Below are positions 2,352 to 34,858 of a stretch of DNA of 64,000 bases, piece by piece (position 1 is the first letter of the stretch; every line of letters begins with the position of its first letter). The notes beneath the pieces were generated by a model. That model was given only the letters and a program-made list of their open reading frames with translations, was not told the DNA's origin and did no database searches. The DNA comes from Escherichia coli (GTDB taxonomy: Bacteria; Pseudomonadota; Gammaproteobacteria; Enterobacterales; Enterobacteriaceae): assembly GCF_009931435.1 (NCBI RefSeq), contig NZ_CP043414.1. The stretch is one strand, 5' to 3'. The position numbers were made by a program, and so were the translations under genes.

Positions 2352-3140
2352 ATGCAAACGATTATCCGCGTCGAACAACTGAGCAAAACCTTCAATCAGC
2401 ATCAGGCGCTGCACGCGGTTGATCTGAACATTCATCACGGTGAAATGGTGGCTCTGCTTGGGCCGTCGGGTTCCGGCAAATCCACCCTTTTACGTCACTT
2501 AAGCGGCCTGATTGTCGGCGATAAAAAGCCAGAATGCCGCGTCGAACTGCTGGGCCGCACCGTCCAGCAAAATGGCCGCCTGGCCCGCGATATCCGCAAA
2601 AGCCGCGCCAACACCGGCTACATCTTCCAACAATTCAACCTGGTGAATCGCCTGAGCGTACTGGAGAACGTGCTGATTGGCGCGCTCGGCAGCACGCCGT
2701 TCTGGCGTACCTGTTTTAGCTGGTTCACCCGCGAGCAGAAACAGCGTGCGTTACAGGCACTGACTCGCGTTGGGATGGTGCACTTTGCCCATCAGCGCGT
2801 TTCCACGCTCTCCGGCGGCCAGCAGCAGCGTGTGGCGATAGCCCGTGCGCTGATGCAGCAGGCGAAGGTGATTCTGGCCGATGAACCCATCGCCTCGCTG
2901 GACCCGGAATCGGCCCGCATCGTGATGGATACCCTGCGCGACATCAACCAGAACGACGGCATCACCGTGGTGGTGACGCTGCATCAGGTGGATTACGCCC
3001 TGCGCTACTGCGAACGCATCGTCGCCCTGCGCCAGGGGCACGTCTTCTACGACGGCAGCAGCCAACAGTTTGATAACGAACGTTTTGACCATCTCTACCG
3101 CAGCATTAACCGCGTCGAAGAGAACGCGAAAGCTGCCTGA
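2352..3140 (+). CDS. phnC: Phosphonate ABC transporter ATP-binding protein, 262 aa
   Basis: ORF track; Walker [10 protein letters not shown] and ABC signature LSGGQQQR. Confidence 0.95.
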
Positions 3141-3164
3141 CATCCCCATCATTGAGGAAAACGA

Positions 3165-4181
3165 ATGAACGCTAAGATAATTGCCTCGCTGGCCTTCACC
3201 AGCATGTTCAGCCTCAGCACCCTGTTCAGCCCGGCACACGCCGAAGAGCAGGAAAAGGCGCTGAATTTCGGCATTATTTCAACGGAATCACAGCAAAACC
3301 TGAAACCGCAATGGACGCCTTTCCTGCAAGATATGGAGAAGAAACTGGGCGTAAAGGTCAACGCCTTCTTTGCTCCGGACTACGCGGGCATTATCCAGGG
3401 GATGCGCTTCAATAAAGTGGATATCGCCTGGTACGGCAATCTGTCGGCGATGGAAGCGGTGGATCGCGCCAACGGTCAGGTCTTCGCCCAGACGGTCGCG
3501 GCGGATGGATCGCCGGGTTACTGGAGCGTGTTGATCGTCAACAAAGACAGTCCGATCAACAACCTGAACGATCTGCTGGCGAAGCGTAAAGATCTCACCT
3601 TTGGCAATGGCGATCCTAACTCCACCTCTGGCTTCCTCGTCCCCGGCTACTACGTCTTCGCCAAAAACAATATCTCCGCCAGCGACTTCAAGCGCACCGT
3701 CAACGCCGGGCATGAAACCAACGCGCTGGCCGTCGCCAACAAGCAGGTGGATGTGGCGACCAACAACACCGAGAACCTCGACAAGCTGAAAACCTCCGCA
3801 CCGGAGAAGCTCAAAGAACTGAAGGTGATCTGGAAATCGCCGCTGATCCCAGGCGATCCGATCGTCTGGCGCAAAAATCTTTCCGAAACCACCAAAGACA
3901 AGATCTACGACTTCTTTATGAACTACGGCAAAACGCCGGAAGAGAAAGCGGTGCTGGAGCGCCTGGGCTGGGCCCCGTTCCGCGCCTCCAGCGACCTGCA
4001 ACTGGTGCCAATTCGCCAGCTCGCGCTGTTTAAAGAGATGCAGGGCGTGAAAGGCAATAAGGGACTGAATGAGCAGGACAAGCTGGCAAAAACCACCGCC
4101 ATTCAGGCGCAACTGGATGATTTGGACCGCCTGAACAACGCGTTAAGCGCAATGAGTTCGGTGAGTAAAGCGGTGCAGTAA
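3165..4181 (+). CDS. phnD: Periplasmic phosphonate-binding protein, 338 aa
   Basis: ORF track; signal-peptide-like N-terminus ending AHA; fits the PhnD family and operon position. Confidence 0.95.
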   Translation: MNAKIIASLAFTSMFSLSTLFSPAHAEEQEKALNFGIISTESQQNLKPQWTPFLQDMEKKLGVKVNAFFAPDYAGIIQGMRFNKVDIAWYGNLSAMEAVDRANGQVFAQTVAADGSPGYWSVLIVNKDSPINNLNDLLAKRKDLTFGNGDPNSTSGFLVPGYYVFAKNNISASDFKRTVNAGHETNALAVANKQVDVATNNTENLDKLKTSAPEKLKELKVIWKSPLIPGDPIVWRKNLSETTKDKIYDFFMNYGKTPEEKAVLERLGWAPFRASSDLQLVPIRQLALFKEMQGVKGNKGLNEQDKLAKTTAIQAQLDDLDRLNNALSAMSSVSKAVQ

Positions 4182-4195
4182 TGTGCTCGATCGGT

Positions 4196-4294
4196 CCCCT
4201 CTCCCTTGAGGGAGAGGGTTAGGGTGAGGGGGGAAATACGCACGCTGATGCCCTCACCCCGGCCCTCTCCTACAGGGAGAGGGAGAAAACATTA
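4196..4294. repeat. GC-rich inverted pair of boxC-like palindromic units in the phnD-phnE spacer
   Basis: CCCTCTCCC-TTGA-GGGAGAGGG-TTAGGGTGAGGGG followed by its near reverse complement GCCCTCACCCCGGCCCTCTCC-TACA-GGGAGAGGG. Confidence 0.7.
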
Positions 4295-4307
4295 AACGGA
4301 GCCAAAC

Positions 4308-5087
4308 ATGCAAACCATCACCATCGCCCCACCCAAGCGCAGCTGGTTCTCGATCTTCAGCTGGGCCGTTGTTCTCGCCGTACTGGTCGTCTCGTGGCAG
4401 GGCGCGGAAATGGCCCCGCTCACGCTGATTAAAGACGGCGGCAACATGGCGACGTTCGCCGCCGACTTCTTCCCGCCCGATTTCAGCCAGTGGCAGGATT
4501 ACCTCACCGAAATGGCCGTCACGCTGCAAATCGCCGTCTGGGGCACTGCGCTGGCAGTCGTTCTCTCCATCCCCTTCGGCCTGATGAGCGCCGAAAACCT
4601 GGTGCCGTGGTGGGTTTACCAGCCCGTTCGCCGCCTGATGGACGCCTGCCGCGCCATTAACGAGATGGTCTTCGCCATGCTGTTCGTGGTCGCCGTCGGT
4701 CTCGGTCCGTTCGCTGGCGTACTGGCGCTGTTTATCCACACCACCGGCGTGCTCTCCAAACTGCTTTCCGAAGCGGTAGAAGCAATTGAACCCGGCCCGG
4801 TGGAAGGTATTCGCGCCACTGGTGCCAACAAGCTCGAAGAGATCCTCTATGGCGTGCTGCCGCAGGTGATGCCGCTGCTGATCTCCTACTCCCTCTATCG
4901 CTTCGAATCCAACGTCCGTTCGGCCACCGTTGTTGGCATGGTCGGCGCTGGCGGGATCGGCGTCACGCTGTGGGAAGCGATTCGCGGTTTCCAGTTCCAG
5001 CAAACCTGCGCCCTGATGGTGCTGATTATCGTCACGGTCAGCCTGCTGGATTTCCTCTCTCAACGGTTGCGTAAGCACTTTATCTGA
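4308..5087 (+). CDS. phnE: Phosphonate ABC transporter permease, intact 259-aa frame
   Basis: Single uninterrupted ORF in the track (4308..5087); binding-protein-dependent permease features. Confidence 0.9.
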
Positions 5088-5107
5088 TAAGCGAGGCATT
5101 GATAGCT

Positions 5108-5833
5108 ATGCACTTGTCTACACATCCGACCAGCTACCCAACACGCTATCAGGAGATAGCCGCAAAACTTGAGCAGGAGCTTCGTCAACACTACCGCTGC
5201 GGCGACTATCTTCCCGCCGAGCATCAACTGGCGGCACGCTTTGAGGTGAATCGCCACACCCTGCGCCGCGCCATCGACCAACTGGTGGAAAAAGGCTGGG
5301 TACAGCGCCGTCAGGGCGTCGGCGTGCTGGTGCTGATGCGCCCGTTCGATTACCCGCTCAACGCCCAGGCGCGTTTTAGCCAGAACCTGCTGGATCAGGG
5401 TAGCCATCCCACCAGCGAAAAACTGCTGTCGGTGCTGCGCCCGGCCTCCGGCCACGTCGCTGACGCGCTGGGGATAACCGAGGGCGAGAACGTTATCCAC
5501 CTGCGCACCCTGCGTCGGGTCAACGGCGTCGCACTCTGTTTAATCGACCACTACTTTGCGGACCTCACTCTCTGGCCGACGCTGCAACGCTTCGACAGCG
5601 GCTCGCTGCACGATTTTTTGCACGAGCAAACGGGAATTGCGCTGCGCCGCAGCCAGACGCGGATCAGCGCCCGCCGCGCCCAGGCCAAAGAGTGCCAGCG
5701 TCTTGAAATTCCGAATATGTCGCCGCTGCTGTGCGTGCGCACCCTTAACCACCGTGACGGTGAAAGCAGCCCGGCGGAGTACTCCGTCAGCCTGACGCGC
5801 GCCGACATGATTGAATTCACCATGGAGCACTGA
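5108..5833 (+). CDS. phnF: GntR-family transcriptional regulator of the phn operon, 241 aa
   Basis: ORF track 5099..5833 starts at TTG; first ATG at 5108 gives MHLSTHPTSYPTRYQEIAAKLEQELR with a GntR-type HTH. Confidence 0.9.
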   Translation: MHLSTHPTSYPTRYQEIAAKLEQELRQHYRCGDYLPAEHQLAARFEVNRHTLRRAIDQLVEKGWVQRRQGVGVLVLMRPFDYPLNAQARFSQNLLDQGSHPTSEKLLSVLRPASGHVADALGITEGENVIHLRTLRRVNGVALCLIDHYFADLTLWPTLQRFDSGSLHDFLHEQTGIALRRSQTRISARRAQAKECQRLEIPNMSPLLCVRTLNHRDGESSPAEYSVSLTRADMIEFTMEH

Positions 5834-6286
5834 ATGCACGCAGATACCGCGACCCGCCAGCACTGGATGTCCGTGCTGGCGCACAGCCAACCGGCTGAAC
5901 TGGCTAACCGCCTTAAAGCGCTAAACATCACCGCCGACTATGACATGATCCGCGCCGCCGAAACCGGCCTGGTACAGATTCAGGCGCGAATGGGTGGCAC
6001 CGGCGAACGCTTTTTTGCTGGCGACGCTACGCTCACCCGCGCCGCTGTACGCCTTACTGACGGCACGCTCGGCTACAGCTGGGTGCTGGGGCGCGACAAA
6101 CAGCACGCCGAACGCTGCGCGCTGATTGACGCGCTGATGCAGCAATCTCGCCACTTTCAAAACTTATCAGAAACCCTTATTGCCCCGCTGGACGCTGACC
6201 GTATGGCACGCATTGCCGCACGCCAGGCCGAAGTGAACGCCAGTCGGGTCGACTTCTTTACGATGGTTCGCGGAGACAACGCATGA
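5834..6286 (+). CDS. phnG: C-P lyase core complex subunit PhnG, 150 aa
   Basis: ORF track; operon position; start immediately after the phnF stop. Confidence 0.9.
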
Positions 6287-29794: not shown

Positions 29795-30462
29795 TGGCTC
29801 ACCTCCCCGTATTTAAACGGTACGCGGTACAGCTTCGGTTTGGTTCCCAGCGCCAGCTTGTAGCGGTAAGTGGGCTTCTGGCGTAGCAGTTGCGAAATCT
29901 CACTGTTGGGATCGTCCAGATTGCCAAACGTCAGCGCCTTCGTCGGGCAAGCCTCAACGCACGCAGGCAGCTTACCGGCCTGCAAATTGGTCTTACGGCA
30001 GAAATCGCATTTGTCCGCCGTCTTCGTGACCGGATGGATAAAGCGCACGCGGTACGGACAGGCGGCGATGCAGTACTGACAACCGACGCAGAGATCTGGG
30101 TTAACATCGACAATCCCGCTGGCAGCATCGCGAAAAGACGCACCCGTTGGGCAGACGTCAACGCACGGTGCATGGTCGCAGTGCTGGCAAGACTTACGAA
30201 AGAAGCGATATTTCACATCAGGAAATTCGCCCTGCGGCTCGCTACGAATAATTGTCAGGCGCGAGACGCCTTCCGGCACCTTGTTCACTTCCCGACAAGC
30301 ATCCATACAGGCAGTACAGCCGATGCATAACGACTCGTCATGCACCATGCCGTAACGCACCCCATTGATATTCAACGTTTTCGCCACCACGCGTCCTGCG
30401 GTGCCGCTGACGGCTGCCAGCACGCCGACGCCGGTGAGAAACTGGCGACGAGACCAGGTCAT
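29791..30462 (-). CDS. nrfC: Fe-S subunit NrfC (4Fe-4S ferredoxin-type), 223 aa
   Basis: ORF track; multiple CxxCxxCxxxCP motifs; Tat-like N-terminus (RRQFLTG). Confidence 0.9.
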
Positions 30463-31025
30463 GGCTGCTCCTTAAGCAACGGAACAGACGCCGGGTTAAA
30501 GTTCGGATTGGTGCGCTGATCGCTGTGGCAATCGACGCAAATCTTAATCCGTCCTTTGTCACTTAACGTCTGCATCGTATCTTGCTGTGGATGCAGGGAA
30601 TGGCAGCTGGCGCACGCCACTTTGGTTACGTGGACATCGTGCGGCCAGAACGCTTTTTGCAACTGTTCCGGCAGATGGCAGGACATACAGACGCTGTTCT
30701 GCTCTCCAACCTTGTACATCGGCTCGTTAAAGCGCATCACATCTTTCACCCCTTCGCGGTGTTGCGGTGATGGCTGGCCGTGACAGTTGGTGCAGGTGAC
30801 CGGCAGTTTGTTATTCGGGTTGATAACGGAAGCATGTTTGCCATGCATACCTTCGGTATCTGGTTTATGACAGTCCAGACAGGCGGCATCCGGGTTACGC
30901 TGCTGGGTAACTTCGTAGCGATCACCAGATGCCTGCGACGCAGGGGTAGCGGTAATTCCGTTCAGGCTCCACAACAGGCCCGACGCCAGCACCCCGGCAG
31001 TTAATAACGAACGTAATACGCTCAT
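30459..31025 (-). CDS. nrfB: Pentaheme cytochrome c NrfB, 188 aa
   Basis: ORF track 30459..31031 starts at GTG; ATG two codons in gives [16 protein letters not shown]; five CxxCH motifs. Confidence 0.9.
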
Positions 31026-31070
31026 ATTCACTCCATTGTGTTTTCCGCCCCTTGCGAGGCGGAACGGGGG

Positions 31071-34858
<3,788 letters not shown>

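What the first reader, a model, noticed from the sequence alone, without database searches (positions are those of the whole stretch)
4196..4294. Inverted pair of GC-rich boxC-like palindromic units in the phnD-phnE spacer
Two ~45-bp units in opposite orientation, each containing the internal hairpin CCCTCTCCC-N4-GGGAGAGGG plus a GGGTGAGGGG tail, fill the phnD-phnE spacer inside an operon. Such elements can form strong RNA structures that affect mRNA stability or polarity between the binding-protein gene and the permease gene.
Basis: seen in the sequence. Interest (0 to 1): 0.3.

Follow-up and report, generated by a model that had tools for sequence, protein, structure and literature searches.

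The report
BoxC repeat pair between phnD and phnE
The two GC-rich units are a real copy of the already catalogued BoxC (also called PIT or TMECO) palindromic repeat of enterobacteria, sitting in the one long gap of the phosphonate operon where nearly every related species carries some strong hairpin; it is an ordinary, known element whose function remains unproven.

Summary
Window 4197-4230 (+) and 4251-4283 (-) are two BoxC/PIT/TMECO units, type A and type B, in the published inverted-pair arrangement. They lie between the phnD stop (4181) and the phnE start (4308).

The repeat unit is the whole 109-bp composite, 4182-4290. It matches the K-12 hrpB-mrcB composite at 101 of 109 positions. The same locus in E. 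coli E24377A is listed in Holder et al. 2015 as TMECO 106/107. Both the family and the locus are therefore already known.

The sense RNA folds into one stem-loop of about 40 bp (-67.9 kcal/mol, z = -6). No U-tract follows it, so it is not an intrinsic terminator.

Among 5426 complete E. coli genomes:
- 354 carry the full pair.
- About 1150 carry collapsed or inverted BoxC derivatives.
- 3874 carry a REP pair in the same spacer.

In 72 of 74 other Enterobacteriaceae species the spacer also holds a strong hairpin: BoxC 37, REP-like 23, other 12.

My best reading is a selfish palindromic repeat that acts as a REP-like barrier to mRNA decay. This role is inferred, not shown. A neutral insertion hot spot remains a serious rival. 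Interest is low.

The parts
3165..4181 (+). phnD, the phosphonate ABC transporter substrate-binding protein (338 aa); stop codon TAA at 4179-4181. This is the gene immediately upstream of the element.
   Evidence: ORF list. NCBIfam TIGR03431 PhnD, E = 9e-113. Annotated as phnD in matching E. coli records.
4182..4290 (.). The complete composite BoxC element, 109 bp: left flank, type A unit, centre, inverted type B unit, right flank. This whole stretch is the repeated unit.
   Evidence: Full-length alignment to the K-12 hrpB-mrcB composite, 101/109 identical. 105/109 identical to the phnD-phnE copy of E24377A. A blastn search finds a median of 12 related places per E. coli genome.
4182..4196 (+). 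Left flank TGTGCTCGATCGGTC, which belongs to the repeat. It starts directly after the phnD stop codon. In the predicted fold, 4182-4188 pair with 4299-4304, which overlaps the phnE Shine-Dalgarno sequence.
   Evidence: The flank is shared with the K-12 hrpB-mrcB copy and with copies elsewhere in E. coli genomes (H20, H72). It is inverted together with the hairpin in strain CE-O153H30. The outer helix comes from the minimum-free-energy fold.
4197..4230 (+). BoxC/TMECO unit of type A: CCCTCTCCC-TTGA-GGGAGAGGG-TTA-GGGTGAGGG.
   Evidence: Exact match to the published consensus CCCTCNCCC-N3-6-GGGNGAGGG-N3-GGGNGAGGG. Identical to MG1655 TMECO no. 2 up to the base that follows the last block.
4231..4250 (.). 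Centre of the composite, GGGAAATACGCACGCTGATG, which forms the apical loop of the long hairpin.
   Evidence: Fold. The centre is conserved in the K-12 hrpB-mrcB copy and in copies in other genera.
4251..4283 (-). BoxC/TMECO unit of type B, read on the minus strand: CCCTCTCCC-TGT-AGGAGAGGG-CCG-GGGTGAGGG. It has one mismatch to the consensus, an A where G is expected, caused by a T at 4271 on the + strand.
   Evidence: Regex scan. Compared with MG1655 TMECO no. 1 and with E24377A TMECO no. 106, both of which have G at that position.
4284..4290 (+). Right flank AGAAAAC, part of the repeat.
   Evidence: Shared with the K-12 hrpB-mrcB and alx-sstT composites. Appears as TTTTCT on the left side of inverted copies in other genera.
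4195..4285 (+). Predicted stem-loop in the phn operon mRNA, about 40 imperfect pairs. It begins 13 nt after the phnD stop codon and is not followed by a U-run.
   Evidence: RNA fold of 4182-4310: -67.9 kcal/mol, z = -5.98, with 0 of 200 shuffles as stable. No terminator-like site at this position.
4298..4301 (+). GGAG, the likely Shine-Dalgarno sequence of phnE, 6 nt before the ATG. The ACGGAGC context is conserved across genera and lies outside the repeat.
   Evidence: Sequence. Conserved right flank in alignment A1 and in the spacers of other species.
4308..5087 (+). phnE, the phosphonate ABC transporter permease (259 aa). It is intact here, whereas it is frameshifted in K-12.
   Evidence: ORF list. 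NCBIfam TIGR01097 PhnE, E = 4e-93. The K-12 copy is annotated as frameshifted.

Best explanation
Identity (near certain). The feature is one copy of the composite BoxC repeat, also published as the PIT element and as TMECO. The composite is a 109-bp non-coding palindromic element: a type A unit and a type B unit in inverted orientation around a short conserved centre. BoxC is dispersed in E. coli and many other Enterobacteriaceae.

Position. It fills the only long intercistronic gap of the Pho-regulated phnCDEFGHIJKLMNOP operon. It starts at the base after the phnD stop codon and ends 7 nt before the phnE ribosome-binding site.

Mechanism (inferred, not shown).
- The element is transcribed as part of the operon mRNA.
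- It folds into an imperfect GC-rich stem-loop of about 40 bp with no U-tract, so transcription reads through.
- The stem-loop acts as REP/BIME stem-loops do at the junction between binding-protein and permease genes in other ABC operons such as malE-malF. It blocks 3'-to-5' exonucleases, so the phnCD part of the message outlives the distal part.
- This favours an excess of the periplasmic binding protein over the permease.

DNA level (shown by the allele series). The palindrome is unstable. Deletions between its internal direct repeats produce shorter alleles that keep a single 9-10-bp hairpin.
For: Identity:
- Unit 1 matches the published TMECO consensus exactly, and unit 2 matches with one mismatch. 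The A+B inverted arrangement is the published one.
- The composite matches the K-12 hrpB-mrcB composite at 101/109 positions over its full length.
- The same locus in E24377A is TMECO 106/107 in Supplementary Table S8 of PMC4666352. Its coordinates match locus L009.
- E. coli genomes hold a median of 12 related places each, almost all chromosomal.

Operon context:
- phnC to phnP lie on one strand with short or overlapping junctions, apart from this 126-nt gap.
- A Pho-box-like sequence lies upstream of phnC.

Structure:
- The fold is -67.9 kcal/mol with z = -6.
- No terminator-like site is present.

Functional inference:
- 3874 of 5426 E. coli genomes carry a REP-like inverted pair in the same spacer, with a fold of -50.5 kcal/mol.
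- 72 of 74 other Enterobacteriaceae species have a strong hairpin here, of varying family: 37 BoxC, 23 REP-like, 12 other. The median z is -4.8.
- The only two species without a hairpin have 22-23-nt spacers.
- All collapsed E. coli alleles keep a perfect hairpin.
- REP stem-loops are established mRNA stabilisers (Newbury et al. 1987, reference 15 in PMC12306157; and general knowledge).
Against: - No expression data were available, so the RNA role is inference only.
- As summarised in PMC4666352, Maher's functional study of PIT elements found no promoter or terminator activity and no effect on RNA polymerase. Holder et al. found no positional trend of TMECOs relative to genes.
- The wobble test gave no sense-strand signature. 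The antisense strand folds better in 47 of 72 species, with 282 G-U pairs against 146. This test is confounded by the A-rich sense flanks.
- Collapsed alleles would keep a hairpin for purely mechanical reasons, because a deletion between the internal direct repeats of a palindrome leaves one arm pair behind.
- Palindromic repeats may simply prefer to insert at existing palindromes.
Confidence: 0.6

Rival explanations
1. A neutral or selfish repeat in a permissive hot spot. The BoxC composite is a non-autonomous mobile or gene-converting element with no role in phn expression. The phnD-phnE gap tolerates insertions, and palindromic elements (REP, BoxC) land preferentially at or replace earlier palindromes. 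That alone would explain why the spacer nearly always holds one.
For: - The same composite occurs in both orientations at this site in different genera, and its flank moves with it. This points to repeated insertion.
- An independently derived inverted allele exists within E. coli.
- Two tandem composites occur in one species.
- The element is 93-96% conserved while the adjoining genes are 80-85% identical, as expected for a homogenised repeat family.
- No functional effect has been published.
- The wobble test was negative.
Against: - Species whose hairpins match neither family's short words also keep a strong stem-loop at the same place: Atlantibacter, Enterobacillus and Enterobacteriaceae B14.
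- Only 2 of 74 species have a hairpin-free spacer.
- None of the E. coli spacer alleles read had lost the hairpin completely. About 50 of the 5426 genomes matched neither query and were not examined.
Confidence: 0.35
2. A DNA-level element. The G-rich strand forms an intrastrand purine-motif triplex, or the palindrome extrudes as a cruciform, during replication or transcription. Its main biological consequence would be local genetic instability, as Holder et al. proposed, rather than any RNA role.
For: - Triplex formation by TMECO oligonucleotides has been shown in vitro, and TMECO loci are more variable between strains, including a 'palindrome effect' of deletions that leave a hairpin (PMC4666352).
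- This locus shows that pattern: at least five spacer alleles derived from BoxC within E. coli, three of them deletions between internal direct repeats. About 1150 genomes carry collapsed or variant forms, against 354 with the full pair.
Against: - In vivo DMS footprinting did not support stable triplex formation, and the duplex competes with the triplex.
- Instability explains how the element decays, not why a hairpin is kept at this junction in nearly all genera.
- Purine-motif triplexes do not form in RNA.
Confidence: 0.15
3. Control of translation at the junction. One route is a hairpin that starts within 15 nt of the phnD stop codon, stalls the terminating ribosome and lowers PhnD output, as reported for REPs close to stop codons. 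The other route is the outer helix (4182-4188 pairing with 4299-4304) masking the phnE Shine-Dalgarno sequence and lowering permease synthesis.
For: - The main stem starts 13 nt after the stop codon.
- In most other species the first predicted pairing in the spacer begins 0-12 nt after the stop codon.
- REPs fewer than 16 nt from a stop codon reduce translation (Liang, Rudd and Deutscher 2015, as described in PMC12306157).
- The predicted outer helix covers GAG of the GGAG sequence.
Against: - The Liang paper could not be read here, and its results concern REP, not BoxC.
- Lowering PhnD output is the opposite of what is expected for a binding protein.
- The outer helix is only 6 pairs and appears only in the minimum-free-energy prediction. 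The REP allele does not form it.
Confidence: 0.15
4. An RNase III processing site. The near-perfect RNA duplex of about 40 bp is long enough to be cut by RNase III. Cleavage would split the operon transcript into phnCD and phnE-P halves with different fates.
For: The predicted duplex has about 40 pairs with few interruptions. That is longer than the roughly 20 bp RNase III needs (general knowledge). Composite BoxC and REP pairs at this site in other species also form stems of about 30-46 pairs.
Against: Collapsed alleles with stems of only 9-11 bp are carried by roughly 1000 E. coli genomes and several species. Stems that short are too small for RNase III, so a long duplex is not required at this junction. 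There is no experimental evidence.
Confidence: 0.1
5. A partial transcription terminator or attenuator that creates polarity between phnD and phnE.
For: It is a strong GC-rich hairpin placed between two cistrons.
Against: - No U-run follows the hairpin on either strand, and the consensus scan finds no terminator-like site at the element.
- phnE to phnP have no other evident promoter and need read-through from phnC.
- PIT elements showed no terminator activity in the published test.
Confidence: 0.04

Closest known systems
BoxC repeat of E. coli, also called the PIT element (Hoyne and Maher) and TMECO (Holder et al. 2015, PMC4666352)
   Same: - The same motif blocks and loop types, TTA for type A and CCG for type B.
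- The same inverted A+B pairing.
- Intergenic location.
- 101/109 identity to the K-12 hrpB-mrcB composite.
- The orthologous copy in E24377A is listed as TMECO 106/107.
   Different: - There is one point difference in unit B, a T at 4271, which gives a G-U pair in the sense RNA.
- The published descriptions treat the units of about 35 nt. Here the conserved, movable unit is the whole 109-bp composite, including the flanks TGTGCTCGATCGGTC and AGAAAAC and the centre.
REP / BIME (repetitive extragenic palindromes), including the REP-like pair that occupies the phnD-phnE spacer in K-12 and most E. coli
   Same: - The same position, directly after the phnD stop codon.
- The same inverted-pair architecture.
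- A strong RNA hairpin without a U-tract.
- REPs at junctions between binding-protein and permease genes are the model for the proposed decay-barrier role.
   Different: - The sequence family is unrelated, and there are no REP consensus words in the window spacer.
- REPs have a known associated transposase (RAYT/TnpA-REP); BoxC has none known.
- The REP allele at this locus is not annotated as a repeat in NC_000913.3.
Intercistronic mRNA-stabilising stem-loops in ABC transporter operons, such as malE-malF (Newbury et al. 1987)
   Same: A stable stem-loop lies just downstream of the periplasmic binding-protein gene inside a polycistronic operon, with no terminator tail.
   Different: The function has been shown experimentally for malE-malF. 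Nothing has been measured for phnD-phnE or for any BoxC element.
REPIN/MITE-type non-autonomous palindromic mobile elements
   Same: - A short composite of two inverted units.
- Many dispersed copies.
- Found in either orientation at the same site.
- More conserved than the flanking genes.
   Different: No target-site duplication is evident, and no cognate transposase is known. Mobility is inferred only from comparing loci.

Membership tests
BoxC / PIT / TMECO | The motif CCCTCNCCC-N3-6-GGGNGAGGG-N3-GGGNGAGGG, with one mismatched pair allowed. | tested here: met
   Unit 4197-4230 (+) matches exactly. Unit 4251-4283 (-) matches with one mismatch, AGGAGAGGG. The consensus is taken from PMC4666352.
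BoxC / PIT / TMECO | Where units are paired, a type A unit (loop TTA) is combined with a type B unit (loop CCG) on opposite strands. | tested here: met
   Unit 1 has TTA and unit 2 has CCG, and they lie on opposite strands. The published rule appears.
BoxC / PIT / TMECO | Full-length similarity to catalogued copies. | tested here: met
   101/109 identity to the K-12 hrpB-mrcB composite and 105/109 to the E24377A phnD-phnE copy. The E24377A copy is listed as TMECO 106/107.
BoxC / PIT / TMECO | A dispersed, multi-copy, intergenic repeat within a genome. | tested here: met
   55,762 places were found in 5332 E. coli genomes: a median of 12 per genome, 43 on plasmids, and no annotated gene under any of the 25 hits listed. 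The 64-kb window holds only this one copy. The rest of the source genome could not be scanned.
BoxC / PIT / TMECO | The G-rich strand forms an intrastrand purine-motif DNA triplex in vitro. | not testable with these tools
   This has been shown by CD and NMR for type A and type B oligonucleotides in PMC4666352. No tool here predicts triplexes.
REP / BIME | REP consensus words such as GCC[G/T]GATG and CTTATCCGGCCTAC. | tested here: not met
   There are no REP-like words in the window spacer, although 36 occur elsewhere in the window. The K-12 allele of the same spacer does carry them.
Intrinsic (Rho-independent) terminator | A GC-rich hairpin followed directly by a U-run. | tested here: not met
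   The hairpin is followed by AGAAAACAUUAAAC. The consensus scan reports no site at 4182-4307 on either strand.
Any curated Rfam RNA family | A score at or above the family's gathering threshold. | tested here: not met
   Only sub-threshold matches to eukaryotic microRNA precursor models were found, 19-26 bits against thresholds of 55-168 bits.
REP-like intercistronic mRNA decay barrier (a functional class) | Upstream mRNA stabilised, with 3' ends accumulating at the stem-loop. | not testable with these tools
   Only indirect evidence exists: a strong predicted stem and a hairpin of some family in 72 of 74 species at this junction. The wobble test was unsupportive.

The most novel reading that the evidence does not exclude
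The phnD-phnE junction is under selection for a strong stem-loop whatever its origin. BoxC composites would then be functional equivalents of REP pairs, which would give BoxC its first physiological role. In addition, the 109-bp composite would be a true mobile unit. It is kept at about 94% identity across genera and re-inserted in either orientation, which implies an as yet unidentified trans-acting enzyme or a gene-conversion system that maintains it.
Probability: 0.25. Interest if true: 0.5.

Novelty: already known. Interest (0 to 1): 0.2.

Why it matters
As it stands, this is a correct sighting of a catalogued repeat at a catalogued locus, so it adds little. It has some value as a natural allelic series: one intercistronic gap holds a BoxC pair, collapsed BoxC hairpins, an inverted BoxC hairpin or a REP pair in different E. 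coli strains, and hairpins of at least three kinds across genera. That makes phnD-phnE a convenient place to test whether BoxC has any RNA-level function, which has been open since the 1990s. It also offers a way to ask what keeps the composite more conserved than the genes around it.

Tried and rejected
- **Rfam scan of 3000-6000 at E <= 10.** It returned only sub-threshold matches to eukaryotic microRNA models, which I take as chance hits on a GC-rich hairpin.
- **Promoter and terminator scan.** Nothing was found at the element, so I rejected the terminator reading.
- **Strand-specific wobble test.** I folded the sense and antisense strands of 72 species' spacers, expecting more G-U pairs and greater stability on the sense strand if RNA pairing were under selection. 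The antisense strand was more stable in 47 of 72 (Wilcoxon p = 1e-4), with 282 G-U pairs against 146. This gives no support, and the A-rich sense flanks confound it.
- **Liang, Rudd and Deutscher 2015.** I could not obtain it by DOI or PMC id. I used only the summary given in PMC12306157.
- **Paper searches.** Searches for phnD/phnE together with hairpin, REP or mRNA stability found nothing specific. A search for 'box C' with BIME and ERIC found nothing.
- **REP membership.** Rejected, because the spacer has no REP words.
- **In-situ inversion as the cause of orientation changes.** I considered recombination between the arms but rejected it as the sole cause, because the asymmetric flank AGAAAAC/TTTTCT moves with the element.
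- **Citrobacter koseri and Kluyvera intermedia.** My script reported apparent phnD-phnE 'spacers' of 907 and 755 nt for these two loci. I set them aside as probable early in-frame stops or frameshifts in phnD and did not analyse them.

Full report
**Observation**

The window sequence at 4182-4307 reads:

TGTGCTCGATCGGTC CCCTCTCCC TTGA GGGAGAGGG TTA GGGTGAGGG GGGAAATACGCACGCTGATG CCCTCACCC CGG CCCTCTCCT ACA GGGAGAGGG AGAAAAC ATTAAACGGAGCCAAAC

- It lies between the phnD stop codon (TAA, 4179-4181) and the phnE ATG (4308).
- NCBIfam equivalog models identify phnC, phnD, phnE and phnF with E-values of 1e-93 or better.
- The two diagnostic patterns each occur exactly twice in the 64-kb window, both times here. 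None of 100 shuffles gave a match.
The units are about 35 nt each rather than about 45 bp.
- The second unit's internal hairpin has 8 pairs rather than 9, because of a T at 4271.

**Structure**

- As sense RNA, the spacer folds into a single long stem-loop spanning 4195-4285, with about 40 imperfect pairs. The energy is -67.9 kcal/mol, z = -5.98, and 0 of 200 shuffles were as stable.
- In this fold the G-blocks of unit 1 pair with the C-blocks of unit 2.
- A short outer helix pairs 4182-4188 with 4299-4304, which overlaps the phnE GGAG sequence.
- No U-run follows the hairpin, and the consensus scan finds no terminator-like site at the element.
- Rfam gives only sub-threshold matches to microRNA models.

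**What it is**

The literature search led to Holder et al. 2015 (PMC4666352). That paper equates BoxC (1990s), the PIT elements of Maher's group, and its own TMECO. It gives the consensus CCCTCNCCC-N3-6-GGGNGAGGG-N3-GGGNGAGGG, with type A units (second loop TTA) and type B units (second loop CCG). Where MG1655 has inverted pairs, they always combine A with B.

- Unit 1 here is an exact type A unit. It is identical to MG1655 TMECO no. 2 up to the base after the last block.
- Unit 2 is type B with one mismatch.
- I fetched the five MG1655 pairs by their published coordinates and aligned them. The window element aligns over its full length to the hrpB-mrcB composite at 101/109 identity. The match includes the flanks TGTGCTCGATCGGTC and AGAAAAC and the centre GCGC(A/G)CGCTGATG.
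- The repeated unit is therefore the 109-bp composite at 4182-4290, not merely two motifs of about 35 nt.
- The orthologous phnD-phnE copy in E. coli E24377A (L009) appears in the paper's Supplementary Table S8 as TMECO 106 (4655133-4655166) and TMECO 107 (4655217-4655183).
- A blastn search with the composite finds 55,762 places in 5332 of 5426 complete E. coli genomes. The median is 12 per genome, almost all on chromosomes, and none of the 25 hits listed lies under an annotated gene.
- Both the family and this particular locus are already known.

**Allele series within E. coli**

The same spacer has several states.

| Allele | Example strain | Genomes | Source |
|---|---|---|---|
| REP-like inverted pair | K-12 | 3874 | |
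| Full BoxC pair | window type, E24377A | 354 | |
| Collapsed, variant or inverted BoxC forms | see below | about 1150 |, 1502 genomes minus the 354 full pairs |

- The collapsed forms are CCCCTCTCCC-ACA-GGGAGAGGG (22AH104), CCCCTCTCCC-TTGA-GGGAGAGGG (SCU-152), and a form that keeps TTAGGG (YZLc23-1).
- Each collapsed form is explained by a deletion between direct repeats inside the palindrome. This is the 'palindrome effect' that Holder et al. describe.
- Strain CE-O153H30 carries a hairpin of the CCCTCGCCCC type with the whole element, flanks included, in the opposite orientation. I read this as an independent insertion. From the 60-80% identity band I estimate it occurs in about 170 genomes.

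**Across genera**

One scan of species-representative genomes with PhnD returned 80 loci. I extracted 74 usable phnD-phnE spacers.

- 37 carry BoxC units. These include 13 of 15 Enterobacter, plus Leclercia, Lelliottia, Kluyvera, Huaxiibacter, Silvania, Yokenella and 6 of 9 Buttiauxella.
- 23 carry REP-like pairs. These include 16 of 17 Citrobacter, Salmonella enterica arizonae, Cedecea and Dryocola.
- 12 match neither motif set in my word classifier. Some look unrelated to both families (Atlantibacter, Enterobacillus, Enterobacteriaceae B14), while others look like degenerate BoxC or REP copies (for example Kluyvera cryocrescens).
- Only 2 have a short hairpin-free spacer of 22-23 nt.
- The median fold z is -4.8, and 63 of 74 have z below -3.
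- None of the spacers read shows a U-run directly after its hairpin; this was judged by eye, and part of that output was cut off.
- The 91-bp core of the composite is 93-96% identical between the window and ten of these genomes. It has the same orientation in three and the opposite orientation in seven.
- The adjoining 300 nt of phnD and phnE are only 80-85% identical.
- In inverted copies the asymmetric flank moves with the element (TTTTCT on the left). Recombination between the arms therefore cannot be the only cause of the orientation changes.

**How it most likely works**

Shown:
- Identity, boundaries, predicted structure and the absence of a terminator tail.
- Position inside a single-strand operon with a Pho-box-like sequence upstream of phnC.
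- Deletion-prone behaviour of the palindrome.

Inferred:
- The element is transcribed with the operon and acts as a REP-like stem-loop that blocks 3'-to-5' exonucleases, stabilising the phnCD part of the message relative to phnE-P.
- The main support is the interchangeable but nearly universal hairpin at this junction, together with the established behaviour of REP stem-loops at junctions between binding-protein and permease genes (general knowledge; Newbury et al. 1987 is cited in PMC12306157).

Evidence against:
- Published tests found no promoter or terminator activity and no effect on polymerases for PIT elements.
- Holder et al. saw no positional trend of TMECOs relative to genes.
- My wobble test showed no sense-strand signature.
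- Collapsed alleles would keep a hairpin for mechanical reasons alone.

I put identity at about 0.97 and the decay-barrier role at about 0.4. A neutral insertion hot spot is the main rival, at about 0.35.

Lesser possibilities:
- Translational effects. The stem begins 13 nt after the stop codon, inside the 15-nt range reported for REP-mediated ribosome stalling. The outer helix may also mask the phnE ribosome-binding site.
- RNase III cleavage of the long duplex.
- The DNA triplex or instability role proposed by Holder et al.

**Verdict**

The functional suggestion is plausible but untested. The element is already known, and interest is low. The modest new points are these:
- The movable, conserved unit is the whole 109-bp composite.
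- The composite is more conserved than the flanking genes and occurs in both orientations at this site.
- The phnD-phnE junction carries a strong hairpin of some family in almost all Enterobacteriaceae examined.

Noticed in passing
window 4308-5087: phnE is intact here (259 aa). The K-12 copy is annotated as frameshifted.
   Followed up: partly
L008 51-114 (E. coli CE-O153H30, NZ_CP172336.1): The phnD-phnE spacer holds a single hairpin of the CCCTCGCCCC type. The whole element, with the flanks TGTGCTCGATCGGT and AGAAAAC, is inverted relative to the window. This looks like an independent insertion. From the identity band I estimate about 170 E. coli genomes carry it.
   Followed up: partly
L015 2518-2768 (Pseudocitrobacter faecalis DSM 27453): The spacer is 251 nt and holds two complete BoxC composites in tandem.
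   Followed up: no
L034 2576-2738; L082 2538-2695; L059 2540-2695: In Pseudenterobacter timonensis, Buttiauxella izardii and Leclercia adecarboxylata NCTC13032, the spacer contains tandem arrays nested between BoxC halves. The periods are 36-46 nt, with about 4 copies.
   Followed up: partly
L015, L016 (Pseudocitrobacter type strains): Their phn loci are 90-98% identical in DNA to this Escherichia-like window, whereas other genera are about 80-84% identical. No Escherichia representative appeared among the 80 loci that the PhnD scan returned. This could reflect horizontal transfer, a taxonomic or assembly issue, or a quirk of the tool.
   Followed up: no
window 30000-34000 (acs-nrfABC): Only 1 of 5426 complete E. 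coli genomes is at least 99% identical here, and nearly all others fall at 95-99%. The window therefore comes from an uncommon, divergent E. coli lineage. The closest strains are N96 and Z0117EC0005.
   Followed up: partly
L039, L044, L046, L049, L050, L053, L054, L056, L061 (phnD-phnE spacers): The non-coding BoxC composite is 93-96% identical to the window copy, in either orientation, while the adjoining coding DNA is 80-85% identical. The apical 'loop' sequence is also conserved. No factor that would maintain this is known.
   Followed up: partly
L095 2783-2836 (NC_000913.3 4323282-4323335): MG1655's annotation carries no repeat feature in the phnD-phnE spacer, although the sequence is REP-like. 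The phnE1 pseudogene start is drawn into the spacer.
   Followed up: no
L079, L080, L083 (Atlantibacter) spacers: A hairpin unrelated to BoxC or REP, GTCCTC(A/G)CGGG-TTCG-CCCGTGAGGAC, sits at the same junction. In A. hermannii an A-to-G change turns an A-U pair into a G-U pair in the sense RNA. This is a single case.
   Followed up: no
L064 (Kluyvera intermedia), L089 (Citrobacter koseri): An in-frame stop appears early in phnD, so my script gave apparent gaps of 755 and 907 nt. These could be pseudogenes or assembly frameshifts, and I did not examine them.
   Followed up: no
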